Translations under genes and position numbers: made by a program
The notes under the pieces: model-generated
Database searches by the model: none
What the model was told of the DNA's origin: nothing
What the model saw: only the letters and a program-made list of their open reading frames with translations
Source of the DNA: Dehalococcoidia bacterium
GTDB taxonomy: Bacteria; Chloroflexota; Dehalococcoidia; GIF9; AB-539-J10
Assembly: GCA_021157895.1 (NCBI GenBank)
Contig: JAGGVQ010000006.1
Coordinates: forward strand, 8,393-72,392
Length of the DNA stretch: 64,000 nt
Direction of reading: 5' to 3'
Part shown: positions 37,848-41,830 of the stretch, in pieces
Numbering within the stretch: position 1 is the first letter of the stretch
Layout of the letters: the number at the start of each line of letters is the position of its first letter

Positions 37848-39110
37848 CTATGTTCCTGATTCCCAGCTATGCAGGTAGTCTTCCTGCTCCTGTGTTAGCG
37901 AGTCGATAGCGATGTTCATGGATTTGAGCTTTAATCGTCCTATCTCCCTGTCAATATGCTCGGGCACGGGATACACCCCTGGCTTGATGTTTCCCTGGGA
38001 TGTGACGAGATGTTCTACGCTGAGAGCCTGGTTAGCAAAGCTCATGTCCATAACACTGGCAGGGTGACCCTCAGCTGCCGCCAGGTTAATCAGCCGGCCA
38101 TCGCCCAGTAAATATATGCGTTTGCCATCAGCCAGTGTATATTCTTCAACGAAAGCTCTCACGTGTCTCCTGGCTTTCGCCAGGCTCTCCAATGCGGGGG
38201 CATTTATTTCCACGTTAAAGTGACCACTATTTGCCAGTATGGCTCCGTCTTTCATATGCAGCATGTGTTCCCTATCGATGACGTTTTTATCACCAGTAGC
38301 AGTGATGAATACCTCTCCAATTTCGCAGGCCTGGAGCAGAGGCATGACCTGGTAGCCATCCATGGCTGCTTCCAGTGCGGAAATTGGGTTAACCTCGGTG
38401 ACAATGACCTGTGCCCCCAGTCCCTGGGCCCTCATGGCGATCCCTTTGCTGCACCAGCCATAACCGCACACGACCACTTTTTTGCCGGCCCACAATATAT
38501 TTGTTGCCCGGGTAATGCCATCTATTGTGCTTTGTCCTGTCCCATAACGGTTGTCGAAGAAGTGCTTGGTCATAGCGTCGTTTACTGCAATGATGGGATA
38601 TCTCAACTTCCCGGCGTTTGCCATGTTTCTCAGGCGAATTACTCCTGTGGTTGTTTCCTCTGTGCCCCCGATAACCTCGCGGCTGAGATCATGGTAGTCC
38701 TTGTGTAGTGTAGAGACCAGGTCAGCACCATCATCCATGGTTATCTGTGGCTTATGCTGTATGGCAATGGCGATATGTTGATAGTACCTTTTGTCATCTT
38801 CTCCCTTGATGGCATTCACGGGAATACCGTAATCCAACAGGGCGGCAGTTACATCATCCTGTGTGCTCAGGGGATTCGAGGCTGTGAGTACCAAATCGGC
38901 GCCGCCTTCCTTTAGTGTTAATGCCAGGTTGGCGGTCTCCGTGGTGATATGCAGGCAGGCAGAGATACGCATCCCCTTCAGGGGCTTTTCTTTGGCGAAT
39001 CTCTGTGCTATTGACTGGAGCACGGGCATATCTCTGCCGGCCCACTCAATGCGCAGTTTTCCTTCTCCTGCCAGGGAGCGATCTTTGATATCACAGTCCT
39101 CGGTATTCAT
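37848..39110 (-). CDS. ahcY: Adenosylhomocysteinase.
   Basis: SAHH core and an NAD-binding region; 420 aa. Confidence 0.95.
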
Positions 39111-40657
39111 AGCTTACTTTCTATCTCCTTTATAATTTTATCTGCTGGCTGGGTGGTGTCTGCGACAATATAAATCTTATTGTCCATCTCTGTTATTGAC
39201 TGGAAGTCCTGTTTTTCGCGTTGAAATATTTCCCAGCGACCATCCGAAACTGTTTCCTGTTTGAGTCGTTCCTCCAGTCTTCTCTGTATCTCCTGTTCGT
39301 TTGCCTGGCATTCTATGATAATAAAATTTGCATTTTGTAATTCGGCTAACTCCCGGGCATGCTGCCGGTCATCCCGTCTGCCGAATGAAGCATCAAGTAT
39401 AACTGATTCTCCCTGGGATAGTATATTCCATGCTTGCTGGAACATATGTTTGTATGTTTTGCGAGAAAAATCAGGAGAATATATTCCCTGGTGATATTGC
39501 TCGAAGTGGTGCTCTGTAGGAGTGATGTTGGCCAGCGTTTTCCTGATGACATCCGAAGATATAACAGATAAGCCGAATTCCCGAGCTATGGCTTGAGCTA
39601 CCGTTGACTTTCCTGTGCCCACCAGTCCCGAGGTGATAAGTAGTAGCGGCTTGTTTCTGGTATAGGAGTATGCCAACCCGAAGTATTCCTTCGCAGTTTG
39701 CAATATGGATTCCTTTTCCGTGGCGGAAAAATAAGGGTCATCCAGCTTAAAGCTTTCCACCTTACCGCGAACATAGGCACGGTAGCATTGATAAAACTGG
39801 AGCAAACCAAGTAAATCATCATCGCCGCTTAGTTTCACATAGGCATCTATCAGGTGCCGAGATAGGGAGTGTGCCTGGCGATGATCCAGATCCATGGCAA
39901 GGAAAGCGATCTCCGAGGCTACATCGGAATATCGGAATCTTTCGTTGAACTCGATGCAGTCATAGATGCAGATATCGTCAGTGAAACAGACATGAGCTGT
40001 GTGCAGGTCACCGTGACAATCCTTTATTCTGCCCTGCTCCACTCGTTTCCGGAACAGCTCATTATTGTTCTTGGTGAAGTCCTCAGTGTAACGCTTGATA
40101 CGGTTATATCTTGGGCTGGAGAGGGATACATCTATATATTTTTCCGTTTGACTGAAGTTTTCGCTGGTGTTCTGGGTAATAACATCCAGTTTGCCGAAGG
40201 CGGCTATCTCTGGCCCTGTATGTGCCTTGTGGTGGAAGTGCGCTAGTTTCTTCGCCACCTGGGATATCATTTCGCTCGTTACCTTGCCCTGGGTCAGCAG
40301 CACATCCATCATGCGCTCTTGCGGCAATTGCTTCATCTTCACGGTGTACTCCACAATATTGCCTGTCCCGTCGACATGAAACTCTGTGTCCTGCTGGACA
40401 ATTGGTGCCACCTCTAAATAGGCATGAGGGCAAAGTCGTCGGTTTAGTTCAAGCTCCTGGTGGCAGAAGTAGCGGCGTTTCTCCAGGGTACTGTAGTCCA
40501 GGTAACCTAAATTTACGGGTTTCTTTACCTTGTATACATAATCTCCGGTGAGGAACAGAAAGGACATCTGGGTCTGAACCAGTTGAATGTTCCTGGTGTC
40601 GTGGGAATAGGCCTGGGGTTTGAGCAGTGATTCGACTAGTGGCGGCAGTTTATCCAT
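39107..40657 (-). CDS. Fusion protein: N-terminal aminoglycoside-phosphotransferase-like kinase domain plus a C-terminal P-loop (AAA_33-like) kinase/ATPase domain.
   Basis: HGDLHTAHV Brenner-type motif in the N-terminal 330 aa. [10 protein letters not shown]-loop in the C-terminal 180 aa. The stop and start overlap ahcY by 4 nt. Confidence 0.7.
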
Positions 40658-40674
40658 TGTCTATTATCCTTAAA

Positions 40675-41196
40675 TCATAATTGGAGCCTTGGTTGACACT
40701 TGGCACAGAATATAGCTTTCTTGTAATCAGTATCCGCCAGGCTATTAGAGAAGTGCATGATGCACCTGGAATTGGGGCAATGCCCCAGCCCGAAGGTGTG
40801 TCCTAATTCATGGACTATTTCCTTGGTGGCCCTCTCCAGACACAGAGCCTCATCGCGAGGCAGGCCATAGTATTCCTGTCTCAAGCGACAAAGGGATATT
40901 ACGGTGGTATGAGAGAGTATATTCGCTTGGCCAAAGACAAAGCTGAACCTGGGAGCGTACAGGTCGACTTCAGTAATGCCTATGACCCGGTCATCATCTC
41001 CCCCCCCTTTTTTATCCAGCAAGGAAATTAGATCTGTAGCGAGATATTGATTTCGTTCTGCATTATAGGCATGCTCGGGAACTGCTATGGCCGACTCTAT
41101 GTTCACGGGGCACCCGAAAATATGGCTTGTTCTGGTCTTTAGTTGGCCCATGATATCCTGTGCTATATCACCCAGTGGCACCAAATTTATCCTCAT
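40675..41196 (-). CDS. amzA: Archaemetzincin-family zinc metallopeptidase.
   Basis: HELGHTFGLGHC...C...C...C signature (HEXXHXXGX3C plus a CxxC tail). Confidence 0.85.
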   Translation of the reverse strand: MRINLVPLGDIAQDIMGQLKTRTSHIFGCPVNIESAIAVPEHAYNAERNQYLATDLISLLDKKGGGDDDRVIGITEVDLYAPRFSFVFGQANILSHTTVISLCRLRQEYYGLPRDEALCLERATKEIVHELGHTFGLGHCPNSRCIMHFSNSLADTDYKKAIFCAKCQPRLQL

Positions 41197-41696
41197 TGTG
41201 TTTCCAGCCAGATCAGGATTTCTGCCAGCACTTGCCTGTGGTTGTTCTCTGTGACCTGTAGGGTTTTAACTCCAGGGAGATTTTTAATTTTCACAGCGAA
41301 GGGGTGGTAACCTGACATAATAGTTCCCAATATCTTGATATTACTGCTCATCGCTTGGGTTACTGCTTGTTGGAATTCTTCTGAGAGAAGCTCCATCTTG
41401 CCGATTTCATCAATCACGATAAGGCTATTTCCCTGTGTTGCCTGGCGTAATGCTGTCACTCCCACCCTGTTAAAATTGTTGATATAAACACCATATTTAC
41501 CTACTCGATGCGGGCTTGGGCTGTCAACATGTGCCAGAATAGCACTCTGACCATCAAGAGTAACGATGCGGAATCCCTGCCGCGAACTCCCTGTGCGTAT
41601 TTCCTCGGTGTAAAAACCACCGCACTTAATTGAGGTGGAGTCCAGAACTTCCTTGACCAGAATGGTTTTACCTGTGCCTGGCCTGCCGGTTAACAA
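41193..41696 (-). CDS. THEP1-type nucleoside-triphosphatase (archaeal-like).
   Basis: TGRPGTGKT P-loop, GFYTEEIR...GFRIVTLDG and DEIGKMEL motifs matching the THEP1/MJ1559 family. It has a TTG start and overlaps amzA by 4 nt. Confidence 0.8.
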   Translation of the reverse strand: MLTGRPGTGKTILVKEVLDSTSIKCGGFYTEEIRTGSSRQGFRIVTLDGQSAILAHVDSPSPHRVGKYGVYINNFNRVGVTALRQATQGNSLIVIDEIGKMELLSEEFQQAVTQAMSSNIKILGTIMSGYHPFAVKIKNLPGVKTLQVTENNHRQVLAEILIWLETQ

Positions 41697-41710
41697 CAGG
41701 GCGTGGGCGC

Positions 41711-41830
41711 TTATTTATCCGCACCCTCCTGGCTGTCAACTGGTTGTGTTGCTGCCAGCTTTCTCTTGTTTTCCAGCTTCTTCGCACGTCGGAGGTGCTT
41801 CATTTTTGCCATTCGTTTGGCTTTATTCAT
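41711..41830 (-). CDS. Unannotated 39-aa strongly basic ORF: MNKAKRMAKMKHLRRAKKLENKRKLAATQPVDSQEGADK.
   Basis: Its ATG overlaps the TGA stop of the upstream gene (ATGA). It exactly fills the gap between the MetE-like gene and the NTPase, and it is below the ORF-track length cut-off. Confidence 0.4.
   Translation of the reverse strand: MNKAKRMAKMKHLRRAKKLENKRKLAATQPVDSQEGADK

What the first reader, a model, noticed from the sequence alone, without database searches (positions are those of the whole stretch)
39107..41830. Archaeal-flavoured module inside the methionine/SAM-cycle operon: kinase fusion, archaemetzincin, THEP1 NTPase and a 39-aa basic micro-ORF
Between ahcY and the MetE-like gene lie four tightly coupled genes with stop/start overlaps of 4 nt. 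The first is an aminoglycoside-phosphotransferase-like kinase fused to a P-loop AAA_33 kinase. The second is an archaemetzincin, a protease family typical of archaea and eukaryotes and rare in bacteria. The third is a THEP1/MJ1559-type NTPase. The fourth is an unannotated 39-aa Lys/Arg-rich ORF whose ATG overlaps the preceding TGA. None of these has an established role in methionine salvage. Their conserved operonic embedding between metK-ahcY and mtnP-mtnA suggests an uncharacterised functional link. Possibilities include a processing or regulatory step acting on a methionine-cycle intermediate or on a small basic peptide substrate.
Basis: partly seen in the sequence, partly recalled or inferred. 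Interest (0 to 1): 0.75.

Follow-up and report, generated by a model that had tools for sequence, protein, structure and literature searches.

The report
Unannotated basic micro-protein coupled to THEP1
Four real genes sit inside a methionine/SAM-recycling operon of a Dehalococcoidia bacterium; the 39-residue one belongs to an unannotated family of small basic proteins that nearly always lies just upstream of the THEP1 NTPase, an enzyme whose function is unknown, but the four genes are not one fixed module.

Summary
The window is from a Dehalococcoidia MAG.

The 39-aa micro-ORF is a genuine gene. It has a codon-level signature of purifying selection and at least 181 homologues (consensus MNKRKRVAxxKHRxKxKKLEEKRKA, His12 and Lys18 invariant). 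It matches no Pfam or NCBIfam model.

The four genes do not behave as one module. Three separate linkages appear in relatives:
- **Micro-protein to THEP1:** 65 of 73 THEP1-anchored loci. Of 15 long loci, 14 keep the pair and 6 of those show no SAM-cycle gene.
- **Two-domain kinase to ahcY:** 16 of 17 Chloroflexota loci. In other phyla the kinase sits next to Usp, CBS and ion-transport genes instead.
- **Archaemetzincin:** facultative. It also accompanies a stand-alone APH-like kinase gene, with thiolase genes between them and no SAM genes nearby.

The micro-protein also occurs alone, including in Ktedonobacteraceae. Its resemblance to ribosomal protein bS22 is marginal.

Best reading: a helical, nucleic-acid-binding partner translated together with THEP1. 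The link to methionine chemistry is unproven. Separately, the neighbouring MesB-like gene has lost two of its four zinc ligands in this lineage.

The parts
41711..41830 (-). 39-aa basic micro-protein (MNKAKRMAKMKHLRRAKKLENKRKLAATQPVDSQEGADK). Its ATG overlaps the MesB-like TGA by 4 nt. It is predicted to be a single helix (residues 3-28) with a disordered tail.
   Evidence: variation at codon position 3 greatly exceeds positions 1 and 2; 244 synonymous codon differences; 181 homologues; SD-like sequences before the conserved ATG; upstream of THEP1 in 65 of 73 loci; AF2 helix, pLDDT 95-97 over residues 1-20.
41193..41696 (-). THEP1/NTPase_1 P-loop NTPase, 167 aa. TTG start 14 nt after the micro-ORF stop. 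Walker A is GRPGTGKT and Walker B is VIDEIGKME.
   Evidence: PF03266, E 1e-45; PRK13695, 162.7 bits against cutoff 156; 1YE8 Aquifex THEP1 at 1.6e-28; 2I3B human NTPase.
40675..41196 (-). Archaemetzincin (peptidase M54), 173 aa, with intact HELGHTFGLGH plus the four-Cys site. It overlaps the THEP1 stop by 4 nt.
   Evidence: NF033823, 189 bits; 2X7M at 1.7e-35, motif aligned.
39653..40657 (-). Kinase N-terminal domain (about aa 1-335): a divergent APH/ELK-fold small-molecule kinase. HGDLH (215-219) and D233 are invariant.
   Evidence: APH, E 6e-4; invariant columns; pLDDT 90.6; Foldseek hits to maltokinase, MtnK, homoserine kinase II, amicoumacin kinase, APH(3'). It is a separate gene in L091, L092 and L176.
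39107..39652 (-). Kinase C-terminal domain (about aa 336-516): AAA_33 P-loop kinase with Walker A GLVGTGKS. Its stop overlaps the ahcY ATG by 4 nt.
   Evidence: PF13671, E 6e-23; weak adenylate-kinase hits; 2RHM, gluconate kinase, APS kinase, PSTK, adenylate kinase.
41827..42858 (-). Context: MesB-like core methionine synthase homologue. Its zinc ligands are Y216/C218/D237/S313 instead of H/C/D/C.
   Evidence: no family hit; Price 2021, PMC7857596; 30 of 32 syntenic homologues are HCDC; only the window and L005 are YCDS.
37848..39110 (-). Context: ahcY (adenosylhomocysteinase), directly downstream of the kinase.
   Evidence: TIGR00936, 638 bits; ahcY follows the kinase in 16 of 17 assessable Chloroflexota loci.
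36632..37840 (-). Context: metK.
42839..45069 (-). Context: mtnA (44029-45069), a Zn_ribbon_8 63-aa ORF (43822-44013) and mtnP (42839-43717).
34044..36552 (-). Context: a PGM/PMM-family mutase (35125-36552) and a PGI/SIS isomerase (34044-35138), at the distal end of the same gene string.

Best explanation
The interval is a composite of three separable gene linkages. They sit between mesB and ahcY in a SAM-cycle/methionine-salvage operon that recurs across Dehalococcoidia.

(1) The 39-aa ORF is a real gene. It belongs to an unannotated family of small basic proteins, seen here in Dehalococcoidia and Ktedonobacteraceae. Each member has one about 26-residue, Lys/Arg-rich helix with invariant His12 and Lys18, followed by a variable tail. 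The gene is read just before THEP1, separated by a stop-start overlap or by roughly 10-40 nt in most loci. The poorly initiated THEP1 (TTG start, no well-spaced SD) is therefore most likely translated by termination-reinitiation. Inferred mechanism: the helix binds a polyanion (RNA, rRNA or DNA) and acts as a trans-acting basic arm for the slow THEP1 NTPase, either targeting or activating it.

(2) The APH-like plus AAA_33 kinase has two intact active sites and is a small-molecule or nucleotide kinase. In this class it is coupled to ahcY. A speculative role is removal or re-phosphorylation of the adenosine/AMP side of the SAM cycle.

(3) The archaemetzincin is a facultative passenger that accompanies the APH-like kinase gene.

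Shown here: the genes are real, the micro-ORF is coding, the linkage statistics, the intact catalytic motifs and the folds. Inferred: nucleic-acid binding, partnership with THEP1, translational coupling and any substrate.
For: **The micro-ORF is coding.** Across 9 syntenic homologues, position-3 differences number 459 against 288 and 257 at positions 1 and 2. There are 244 synonymous codon differences, and the other sense frames carry stops. ORF length is kept at 28-40 aa and the start is conserved. SD-like motifs precede the conserved ATG in many contexts.

**It forms a family.** 181 hits in 5.8 billion proteins, of which the best 120 listed all have E<=3.2e-5. All are short, all are 'hypothetical', and none has a Pfam domain. 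H12 and K18 are invariant. Members come from Dehalococcoidales and Ktedonobacteraceae.

**It is linked to THEP1.** The micro-ORF lies upstream of THEP1 in 65 of 73 assessable THEP1-anchored loci, with a median gap of 14 nt, and in 14 of 15 long loci. Some junctions appear to be ATGA overlaps. In one locus (L121) the two are in a single reading frame.

**It looks like a polyanion binder.** The conserved 25 residues are 50% Lys+Arg. Some homologues carry 120-200-aa Ala/Lys/Pro/Glu repeat tails. AF2 predicts a single helix. The THEP1 literature describes a RecA-like fold and a basic surface, proposes a DNA/RNA cosubstrate, and notes the gene beside tRNA methyltransferase Trm1 in 4 archaea (PMC1079890).

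**The kinase.** ahcY lies downstream in 16 of 17 loci. The two domains are separate adjacent genes in L091, L092 and L176. The catalytic residues are invariant. The folds were identified by Foldseek.

**The archaemetzincin.** All 3 amz-anchored loci carry a stand-alone APH-like gene 2-4 kb downstream. The same layout appears in L023, L025 and L028.
Against: - There is no experimental evidence of translation, binding or activity.
- The micro-protein also occurs with no THEP1 nearby: 5 of 8 micro-anchored contexts, and directly upstream of the kinase in L006, L012, L013, L055, L069, L091 and L092. It therefore cannot be solely a THEP1 subunit.
- THEP1 cores are themselves basic (median pI 9.2), so an extra basic arm is not obviously needed.
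- The L121 single reading frame could be a decaying micro-ORF rather than a functional fusion.
- The adenosine-salvage idea for the kinase has no direct support. In other phyla the kinase has no SAM-cycle neighbours and sometimes sits next to a PfkB kinase.
- Many metagenomic contigs are short, so absences are weakly informative.
Confidence: 0.55

Rival explanations
1. The micro-protein is the Chloroflexota version of the small ribosomal protein bS22 (the mS38/eL41 pocket protein). It would be a housekeeping ribosomal protein whose gene merely tends to lie in front of THEP1 or the kinase, or THEP1 would itself be ribosome-associated.
For: - Its size is right (28-40 aa), it is about 50% Lys+Arg, and it is helical.
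- The family motif NKrKRvAwlKHRr aligns without gaps to M. smegmatis bS22 KRRKRMSKKKHRK, and the score exceeds all but 1.4-1.7% of shuffles.
- It is conserved in two Chloroflexota classes (Dehalococcoidia and Ktedonobacteria) and occurs as a stand-alone gene in unrelated contexts.
- The literature notes that bS22 is often unannotated and is expected in more phyla (PMC10618245).
Against: - No Pfam (PF08213) or NCBIfam hit, even at E<=10.
- The family profile finds no PDB chain at E<=10, although bS22 and mS38 chains are in that library.
- Scores against Borrelia and Flavobacterium bS22, human mS38 and eL41 are no better than shuffles.
- Pairwise scores of individual members against Msm bS22 are mostly non-significant.
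- The family has a conserved acidic pair (E20, E21), a long unbroken predicted helix, and variants with 150-aa repeat tails. None of this is typical of bS22.
- Its tight coupling to THEP1 would remain unexplained.
Confidence: 0.2
2. One reading: the four genes form one functional module acting on a methionine-cycle intermediate, or on the basic peptide itself as a substrate of the protease and/or kinase.
For: - All four are co-oriented and tightly packed between mesB-like and ahcY.
- The full order is kept in L005 and L010, and partially in many other loci.
- 9 of 15 long THEP1-anchored loci carry SAM-cycle genes.
- No terminator-like site lies on the coding strand inside the block.
Against: - The components are inherited separately.
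- Micro-THEP1 and amz-APH pairs exist outside any SAM context.
- The micro-protein occurs alone.
- 59% of family members have no Ser, Thr or Tyr in the conserved region.
- Archaemetzincin is missing from most loci that carry the micro-ORF.
- The kinase family is found in many phyla next to Usp, CBS, TrkA or P-type ATPase genes, with no methionine genes nearby.
Confidence: 0.1
3. The micro-ORF is only a translational coupling device or leader (an upstream ORF) for the downstream gene, and its peptide has no function of its own.
For: - It always lies immediately upstream of another gene, separated by an overlap or a short gap.
- THEP1 here has a TTG start and no well-placed SD.
Against: - The amino-acid sequence, not just the reading frame, is conserved between two Chloroflexota classes (Dehalococcoidia and Ktedonobacteria), with invariant His and Lys and abundant synonymous change.
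- The family occurs in front of unrelated genes and as an isolated gene between convergent or divergent neighbours.
- Some members have grown long repeat tails.
Confidence: 0.08
4. There is no functional relationship. The slot between mesB and ahcY is a permissive insertion site in a highly expressed housekeeping operon, and unrelated genes accumulate and are lost there.
For: The slot's content is highly variable. In different loci it holds thiolase/HMG-CoA-synthase-like genes, PHP, MFS, aldo-keto reductase, DUF6485, or an IS200-type transposase.
Against: The pairwise linkages recur too often and in too many different surroundings to be neutral: micro-THEP1 in 65 of 73 loci, kinase-ahcY in 16 of 17, and amz-APH in 9 loci.
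Confidence: 0.07

Closest known systems
Ribosomal protein bS22 (PF08213; M. smegmatis 33 aa; analogues mS38 and eL41)
   Same: It is about 30-40 aa, very basic, helical, often missed by annotation, and shares a KR[MV][SA]xxKHR-like core with the actinobacterial sequence.
   Different: There is no profile-level similarity and no similarity to Bacteroidota or Borrelia bS22, mS38 or eL41. The family also has a conserved Glu-Glu pair, long-tailed variants, and near-constant coupling to THEP1.
THEP1 / COG1618 NTPases (Aquifex aq_1292, PDB 1YE8; human NTPCR, PDB 2I3B)
   Same: It is a full-length match with intact Walker A and B motifs, and scores above the Pfam and NCBIfam cutoffs.
   Different: Here it is preceded by a conserved basic micro-protein gene and is often embedded in a SAM-cycle operon. 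The one THEP1 paper read here (PMC1079890) reports only a Trm1 neighbour in four archaea.
Archaemetzincin AmzA (M. kandleri 2X7M; A. fulgidus 3ZVS)
   Same: It shares the HExxHxxGxxH catalytic motif and the four-Cys structural zinc site, with E 1.7e-35.
   Different: This is a bacterial (Dehalococcoidia) clade that is large and already annotated. It recurs next to an APH-like kinase and thiolase genes.
Two-domain 'aminoglycoside phosphotransferase family enzyme / predicted kinase' proteins (COG2187+COG0645 type). From memory and untested here, M. tuberculosis DosR-regulon protein Rv2004c has this architecture.
   Same: It has an APH-fold N-domain plus an AAA_33 P-loop C-domain, with at least 8000 homologues. 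Outside Chloroflexota it neighbours Usp, CBS and P-type ATPase genes, which resembles a dormancy gene set. Rv2004c is reported to have mild streptomycin phosphotransferase activity (PMC8701281).
   Different: In Dehalococcoidia it is locked to ahcY-metK and is sometimes split into two genes. Homology to Rv2004c was not tested because no sequence was available.
MesB core methionine synthase of Dehalococcoides mccartyi (DET0516; Price et al. 2021)
   Same: The neighbouring 343-aa gene is the syntenic homologue of HCDC-type MesB-like proteins in related loci.
   Different: In the window and in L005 the zinc ligands are YCDS. This resembles the 'non-enzymatic' Chloroflexi homologues (for example YCDQ) that the paper excluded.

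Membership tests
THEP1 / NTPase_1 (PF03266, COG1618) | Profile match above the curated cutoff over the full length | tested here: met
   PF03266 at 156 bits against 23.9. NCBIfam PRK13695 at 162.7 bits against 156. PDB 1YE8 at E 1.6e-28.
THEP1 / NTPase_1 (PF03266, COG1618) | Walker A GxxGxGKT and Walker B hhhhDEIG | tested here: met
   GRPGTGKT and LIVIDEIGKME are read directly in the translation.
THEP1 / NTPase_1 (PF03266, COG1618) | Slow ATPase/GTPase activity | not testable with these tools
   This is known only for Aquifex THEP1 (PMC1079890).
Archaemetzincin (peptidase M54) | HExxHxxGxxH followed by the CX4CXM...CXXC four-Cys site | tested here: met
   HELGHTFGLGHCPNSRCIM...FCAKC aligns without gaps to 2X7M. 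NF033823 scores 189 bits against a cutoff of 145.
Archaemetzincin (peptidase M54) | Proteolytic activity | not testable with these tools
   None.
APH / eukaryotic-like small-molecule kinase fold (PF01636) | Sequence profile above the gathering score | tested here: not met
   20.1 bits against 23.2, E 6e-4.
APH / eukaryotic-like small-molecule kinase fold (PF01636) | Bilobal kinase fold with a catalytic HGDxH loop and a metal-binding Asp | tested here: met
   The AF2 model has pLDDT 90.6. Foldseek gives probability 1.0 to maltokinase, MtnK, homoserine kinase II and APH(3'). H215-G-D-L-H219 and D233 are invariant in 60 homologues.
AAA_33 P-loop kinase (PF13671) | Profile above the cutoff, with Walker A present | tested here: met
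   82.2 bits against 27. GLVGTGKS is present. Structural matches include 2RHM, gluconate kinase and APS kinase.
Ribosomal protein bS22 / mS38 (PF08213) | Match to the family profile or to solved bS22/mS38 chains | tested here: not met
   No Pfam or NCBIfam hit at E<=10. The family profile finds 0 PDB chains. Only Msm bS22 exceeds shuffles, and marginally (p about 0.015).
Ribosomal protein bS22 / mS38 (PF08213) | Occupies the 16S h2/h27/h44/h45 pocket of the small subunit | not testable with these tools
   This needs a ribosome structure or ribosome proteomics from a Chloroflexota species.
MesB core methionine synthase | Zinc ligands H-C-D/E-C (D. mccartyi residues 214, 216, 235, 311) | tested here: not met
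   The window has Y216, C218, D237 and S313. 30 of 32 syntenic homologues keep HCDC.
   The complete set appears only in L005 and L010 among 19 kinase-anchored Chloroflexota loci. Among 15 long THEP1-anchored loci, micro is in 14, the kinase in 7 and amz in 5.

The most novel reading that the evidence does not exclude
The micro-protein is a previously unrecognised RNA- or ribosome-binding protein of Chloroflexota that works as the obligate partner of THEP1. This would identify the THEP1/NTPCR family (archaea, Aquificae, animals; function unknown) as an RNA- or ribosome-directed NTPase. Its frequent placement in the SAM-cycle operon, and next to Trm1 in archaea, would then reflect a role in SAM-dependent RNA methylation or its quality control.
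Probability: 0.15. Interest if true: 0.75.

Novelty: new variant of a known kind. Interest (0 to 1): 0.5.

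Why it matters
- **THEP1/NTPCR.** The 2005 structure paper read here (PMC1079890) reports no known cellular function for this family, which extends from archaea and Aquificae to humans. 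A small partner protein that is conserved, translated alongside it, and probably binds nucleic acid gives a concrete and cheap experiment: test NTPase activity with and without the peptide and with and without RNA, and run pull-downs.
- **Small-protein annotation.** The micro-protein family shows that a conserved, selected gene of about 35 codons can be present in hundreds of assemblies with no family annotation.
- **Context-based prediction.** Dissecting the linkages corrects an attractive but wrong inference, namely that this is a four-gene methionine-cycle module. It also flags that the kinase-ahcY coupling is the only linkage that could bear on SAM-cycle chemistry.
- **Methionine synthesis in this lineage.** The degenerate MesB-like gene raises the question of how this organism makes methionine.

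Tried and rejected
- **Riboswitch or RNA element in the operon.** Rfam found nothing in 39000-45400 at the gathering threshold or at E<=1 beyond two chance-level hits.
- **Single-sequence search with the micro-ORF.** A phmmer search of 1.84 billion representatives gave only one hit. The query was too short, so the family only became visible through synteny-guided tblastn and then a profile search.
- **bS22 membership.** I tested it with Pfam at E<=10, two PDB profile searches, pairwise shuffles and HMM shuffles. The result was marginal for one actinobacterial sequence and null for the rest, so I did not adopt it.
- **Promoter and terminator scan.** Counts equal those of shuffled sequence. The only usable result is that no terminator-like site lies on the coding strand within the block.
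- **Sequence search of PDB.** It was uninformative for the kinase N-domain and for the MesB-like protein.
- **Foldseek on the kinase model.** It gave the fold class but no specific substrate.
- **Fold search with the micro-protein model.** I did not run it, because a single helix would match indiscriminately.
- **Archaemetzincin literature.** The one comparative-genomics mention (the Thi4 paper) concerns a different protein, DUF6775.
- **Homology of the kinase to Rv2004c.** I could not test it because no sequence was available. It remains a lead from memory.

Full report
**What is there.**
All genes of interest lie on the minus strand. In order of transcription they are:
- mtnA, 44029-45069
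- a 63-aa Zn_ribbon_8 ORF, 43822-44013
- mtnP, 42839-43717
- a 343-aa MesB-like protein, 41827-42858
- the 39-aa micro-ORF, 41711-41830
- THEP1, 41193-41696 (TTG start)
- archaemetzincin, 40675-41196
- a 516-aa kinase, 39107-40657
- ahcY, 37848-39110
- metK, 36632-37840
- a PGM/PMM-family mutase, 35125-36552
- a PGI/SIS isomerase, 34044-35138

Three junctions are 4-nt overlaps: MesB-like/micro, THEP1/amz and kinase/ahcY. Two are short gaps of 14 and 17 nt. No Rfam element lies in the operon. No terminator-like site lies on the coding strand inside the block.

The window comes from a Dehalococcoidia MAG. The kinase is 100% identical to an NCBI protein from 'Dehalococcoidia bacterium'. The nearest species-level genome locus (L005) is 88-99% identical protein by protein.

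**The micro-ORF is a real gene.**
Exact copies have been called in metagenomes, but those contigs are the same organism at 99.8% DNA identity and add nothing independent.

Synteny-guided tblastn in 80 genome loci anchored on the kinase found divergent copies in Dehalococcoidia loci whose flanking proteins are only 45-57% identical. Every copy is a 28-40-aa ORF that begins at the same conserved MNK. A second subtype begins MK[YH]SQREI.

The codon alignment shows a clear coding signature:
- 459 differences at third positions, against 288 and 257 at first and second positions
- 244 synonymous codon differences
- stop codons in the other sense frames

A profile search of 5.8 billion proteins returned 181 hits. 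The best 120 listed all have E<=3.2e-5. All are short, none carries a Pfam domain, and the names that exist are 'hypothetical protein'. In 96 aligned members the consensus is MNKRKRVAxxKHRxKxKKLEEKRKA, with His12 and Lys18 invariant. Named members come from Dehalococcoidales and Ktedonobacteraceae, so the family spans at least two Chloroflexota classes.

SD-like motifs precede the conserved ATG in most contexts. AlphaFold predicts one helix over residues 3-28, with pLDDT 95-97 for the first 20 residues, followed by a disordered tail.

**The four genes are not one module.**

*Kinase-anchored Chloroflexota loci.* There are 19 with both kinase domains.
- ahcY follows the kinase in 16 of the 17 loci that have downstream sequence.
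- The micro-ORF lies upstream in 13 of 19.
- THEP1 is present in 6 of 19.
- An adjacent archaemetzincin is present in 3 of 19.
- In 61 loci from other phyla (Thermodesulfobacteriota, Dadabacteria, Acidobacteriota and others) the kinase has essentially no methionine or SAM neighbours. It sits instead next to Usp, CBS, TrkA-type channel, P-type ATPase, ARMT1-like phosphatase or PfkB genes.

*THEP1-anchored metagenomic loci.* There are 80.
- The micro-ORF lies immediately upstream of THEP1 in 65 of 73 assessable loci, with a median length of 34 aa and a median gap of 14 nt.
- Some junctions appear to be ATGA overlaps.
- Among the 15 loci with at least 5 kb on both sides, micro is present in 14, any SAM-cycle gene in 9, the kinase in 7 and amz in 5.
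- Five long loci carry micro-THEP1 with none of the other genes.

*Archaemetzincin-anchored contigs.* All three long Dehalococcoidia contigs show amz, then thiolase gene(s), then a stand-alone APH-like gene that is 61-67% identical to the window's N-domain. None has an AAA_33 domain, a micro-ORF or a SAM gene nearby. The same layout appears in L023, L025 and L028.

*Micro-anchored contexts.* Three of eight lie in the SAM operon in front of THEP1 or the kinase. Five lie in unrelated surroundings.

*Split kinase.* In L091, L092 and L176 the kinase is split into adjacent APH-like and AAA_33 genes. This argues that the two domains work together.

**What each part most likely does.**

*Micro-protein and THEP1.* The micro-protein is half Lys+Arg over its conserved helix. 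Some homologues extend into 120-200-aa Ala/Lys/Pro/Glu repeat tails of the kind seen on nucleic-acid-binding proteins. In L121 a micro-like segment and THEP1 share one reading frame.

The THEP1 paper read here reports a slow NTPase with a RecA-like fold, a basic cleft proposed to take DNA or RNA, and a tRNA methyltransferase neighbour in four archaea. Its function is unknown (PMC1079890).

I therefore infer that the micro-protein is a polyanion-binding partner of THEP1, produced by coupled translation. This is inference, not demonstration. The stand-alone occurrences show that it must also have a THEP1-independent role.

*Kinase.* Both active sites are intact and the model is confident (pLDDT 90.6). 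The N-domain resembles small-molecule kinases: maltokinase, 5-methylthioribose kinase, homoserine kinase II and APH. The C-domain resembles gluconate, APS, adenylate and PSTK-type kinases. No substrate can be assigned. A role on the adenosine/AMP side of the AhcY reaction is a guess based only on adjacency.

*Archaemetzincin.* It has all its catalytic and structural zinc ligands. It is common, not rare, in Dehalococcoidia.

**The bS22 idea.**
The peptide's size, charge and KR[MV][AS]xxKHR core recalled ribosomal protein bS22. I confirmed the M. smegmatis sequence in the PDB and took the Borrelia and Flavobacterium sequences from the supplement of PMC10618245.
- Pfam and PDB profile searches found nothing.
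- Pairwise scores were mostly within the shuffle range.
- The family HMM beat shuffles only for the actinobacterial sequence (p about 0.015). It did not for Borrelia or Flavobacterium bS22, mS38 or eL41.

Membership is therefore not established. It stays as a rival at about 20%.

**Neighbouring gene.**
The 'MetE-like' gene is the positional homologue of MesB-type core methionine synthases (Price et al. 2021). Thirty of 32 syntenic homologues keep the H-C-D-C zinc ligands. The window and its close relative L005 have Y-C-D-S. That pattern resembles the Chloroflexi homologues the paper set aside as non-enzymatic. The methionine-synthase step of this 'methionine operon' may be disabled in this lineage.

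**Verdict.**
The interpretation as one archaeal-flavoured module serving the methionine cycle is only partly supported. The new elements are the unannotated small basic protein family and its near-constant coupling to THEP1. The enzymes themselves are ordinary members of known, already annotated families.

Noticed in passing
window 41827-42858 (-): The MesB-like core methionine synthase homologue has Tyr216 and Ser313 where 30 of 32 syntenic homologues have the zinc ligands His and Cys (YCDS against HCDC). The same substitutions occur in L005, so this is not a sequencing error. The protein may be catalytically dead.
   Followed up: partly
window 43822-44013 (-): A 63-aa Zn_ribbon_8 ORF lies between mtnA and mtnP. 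It is conserved in the closest relative L005 (98% identity); L001-L003, which also carry it, are the same organism as the window. Its function is unknown.
   Followed up: partly
L098, L114, L126, L127, L129, L135, L137, L140, L158, L174, L097 (upstream of THEP1): Some micro-protein homologues keep the 25-aa N-terminal motif but continue into 120-200-aa Ala/Lys/Pro/Glu-rich tandem-repeat tails that resemble histone H1 or HU tails.
   Followed up: partly
L121 5914-6516: A degenerate micro-like segment (VAKLKHREKRKKLKEKRRAQQAGH) is in frame with THEP1 and has no intervening stop. It is either a natural fusion or a decaying micro-ORF.
   Followed up: partly
L091 6133-8541; L092 6143-7820; L176 5643-7820: The APH-like and AAA_33 kinase domains are separate adjacent genes in these Dehalococcoidia loci. 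In L091 an IS200-type Y1 transposase gene sits between them. In L176 THEP1 is called as two fragments.
   Followed up: partly
L093-L095, L023, L025, L028, L091, L092: Thiolase, DUF35-type OB-fold and HMG-CoA-synthase-like genes recur between archaemetzincin, or the micro-ORF, and the APH-like kinase gene.
   Followed up: no
L009 9021-9248; L112 2078-2311; L095 6777-7004 and about 10 other loci: A Cys-rich 75-aa DUF6485 ORF recurs just upstream of the micro-ORF/THEP1 or archaemetzincin in relatives. It is absent from the window.
   Followed up: partly
L040, L043, L046, L047, L052, L059, L060, L063, L065, L072, L083 (kinase neighbourhoods outside Chloroflexota): In Dadabacteria and Thermodesulfobacteriota the two-domain kinase sits among tandem Usp, CBS, TrkA-type K+ channel and P-type ATPase genes. 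This resembles a stress or dormancy gene set.
   Followed up: partly
window 33974-34062 (+) against 34044-35138 (-): A long-arm tRNA on the plus strand overlaps the 3' end of the PGI/SIS ORF on the minus strand by 19 nt. The ORF's true stop or the tRNA boundary may need checking.
   Followed up: no
window 11342-11695 (-): A bacterial class A RNase P RNA (293 bits) is present, together with tRNAs at 275-427 and 32101-32173.
   Followed up: no
window 46523-49105 (+): A DUF503 gene is followed by an MrfA/Hrq1-type DEAD helicase with an MZB zinc domain, then a Fur-family regulator (49089-49613). This group is transcribed divergently from the mtnA operon, after a pyridine-nucleotide disulphide oxidoreductase gene (45183-46517).
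   Followed up: no
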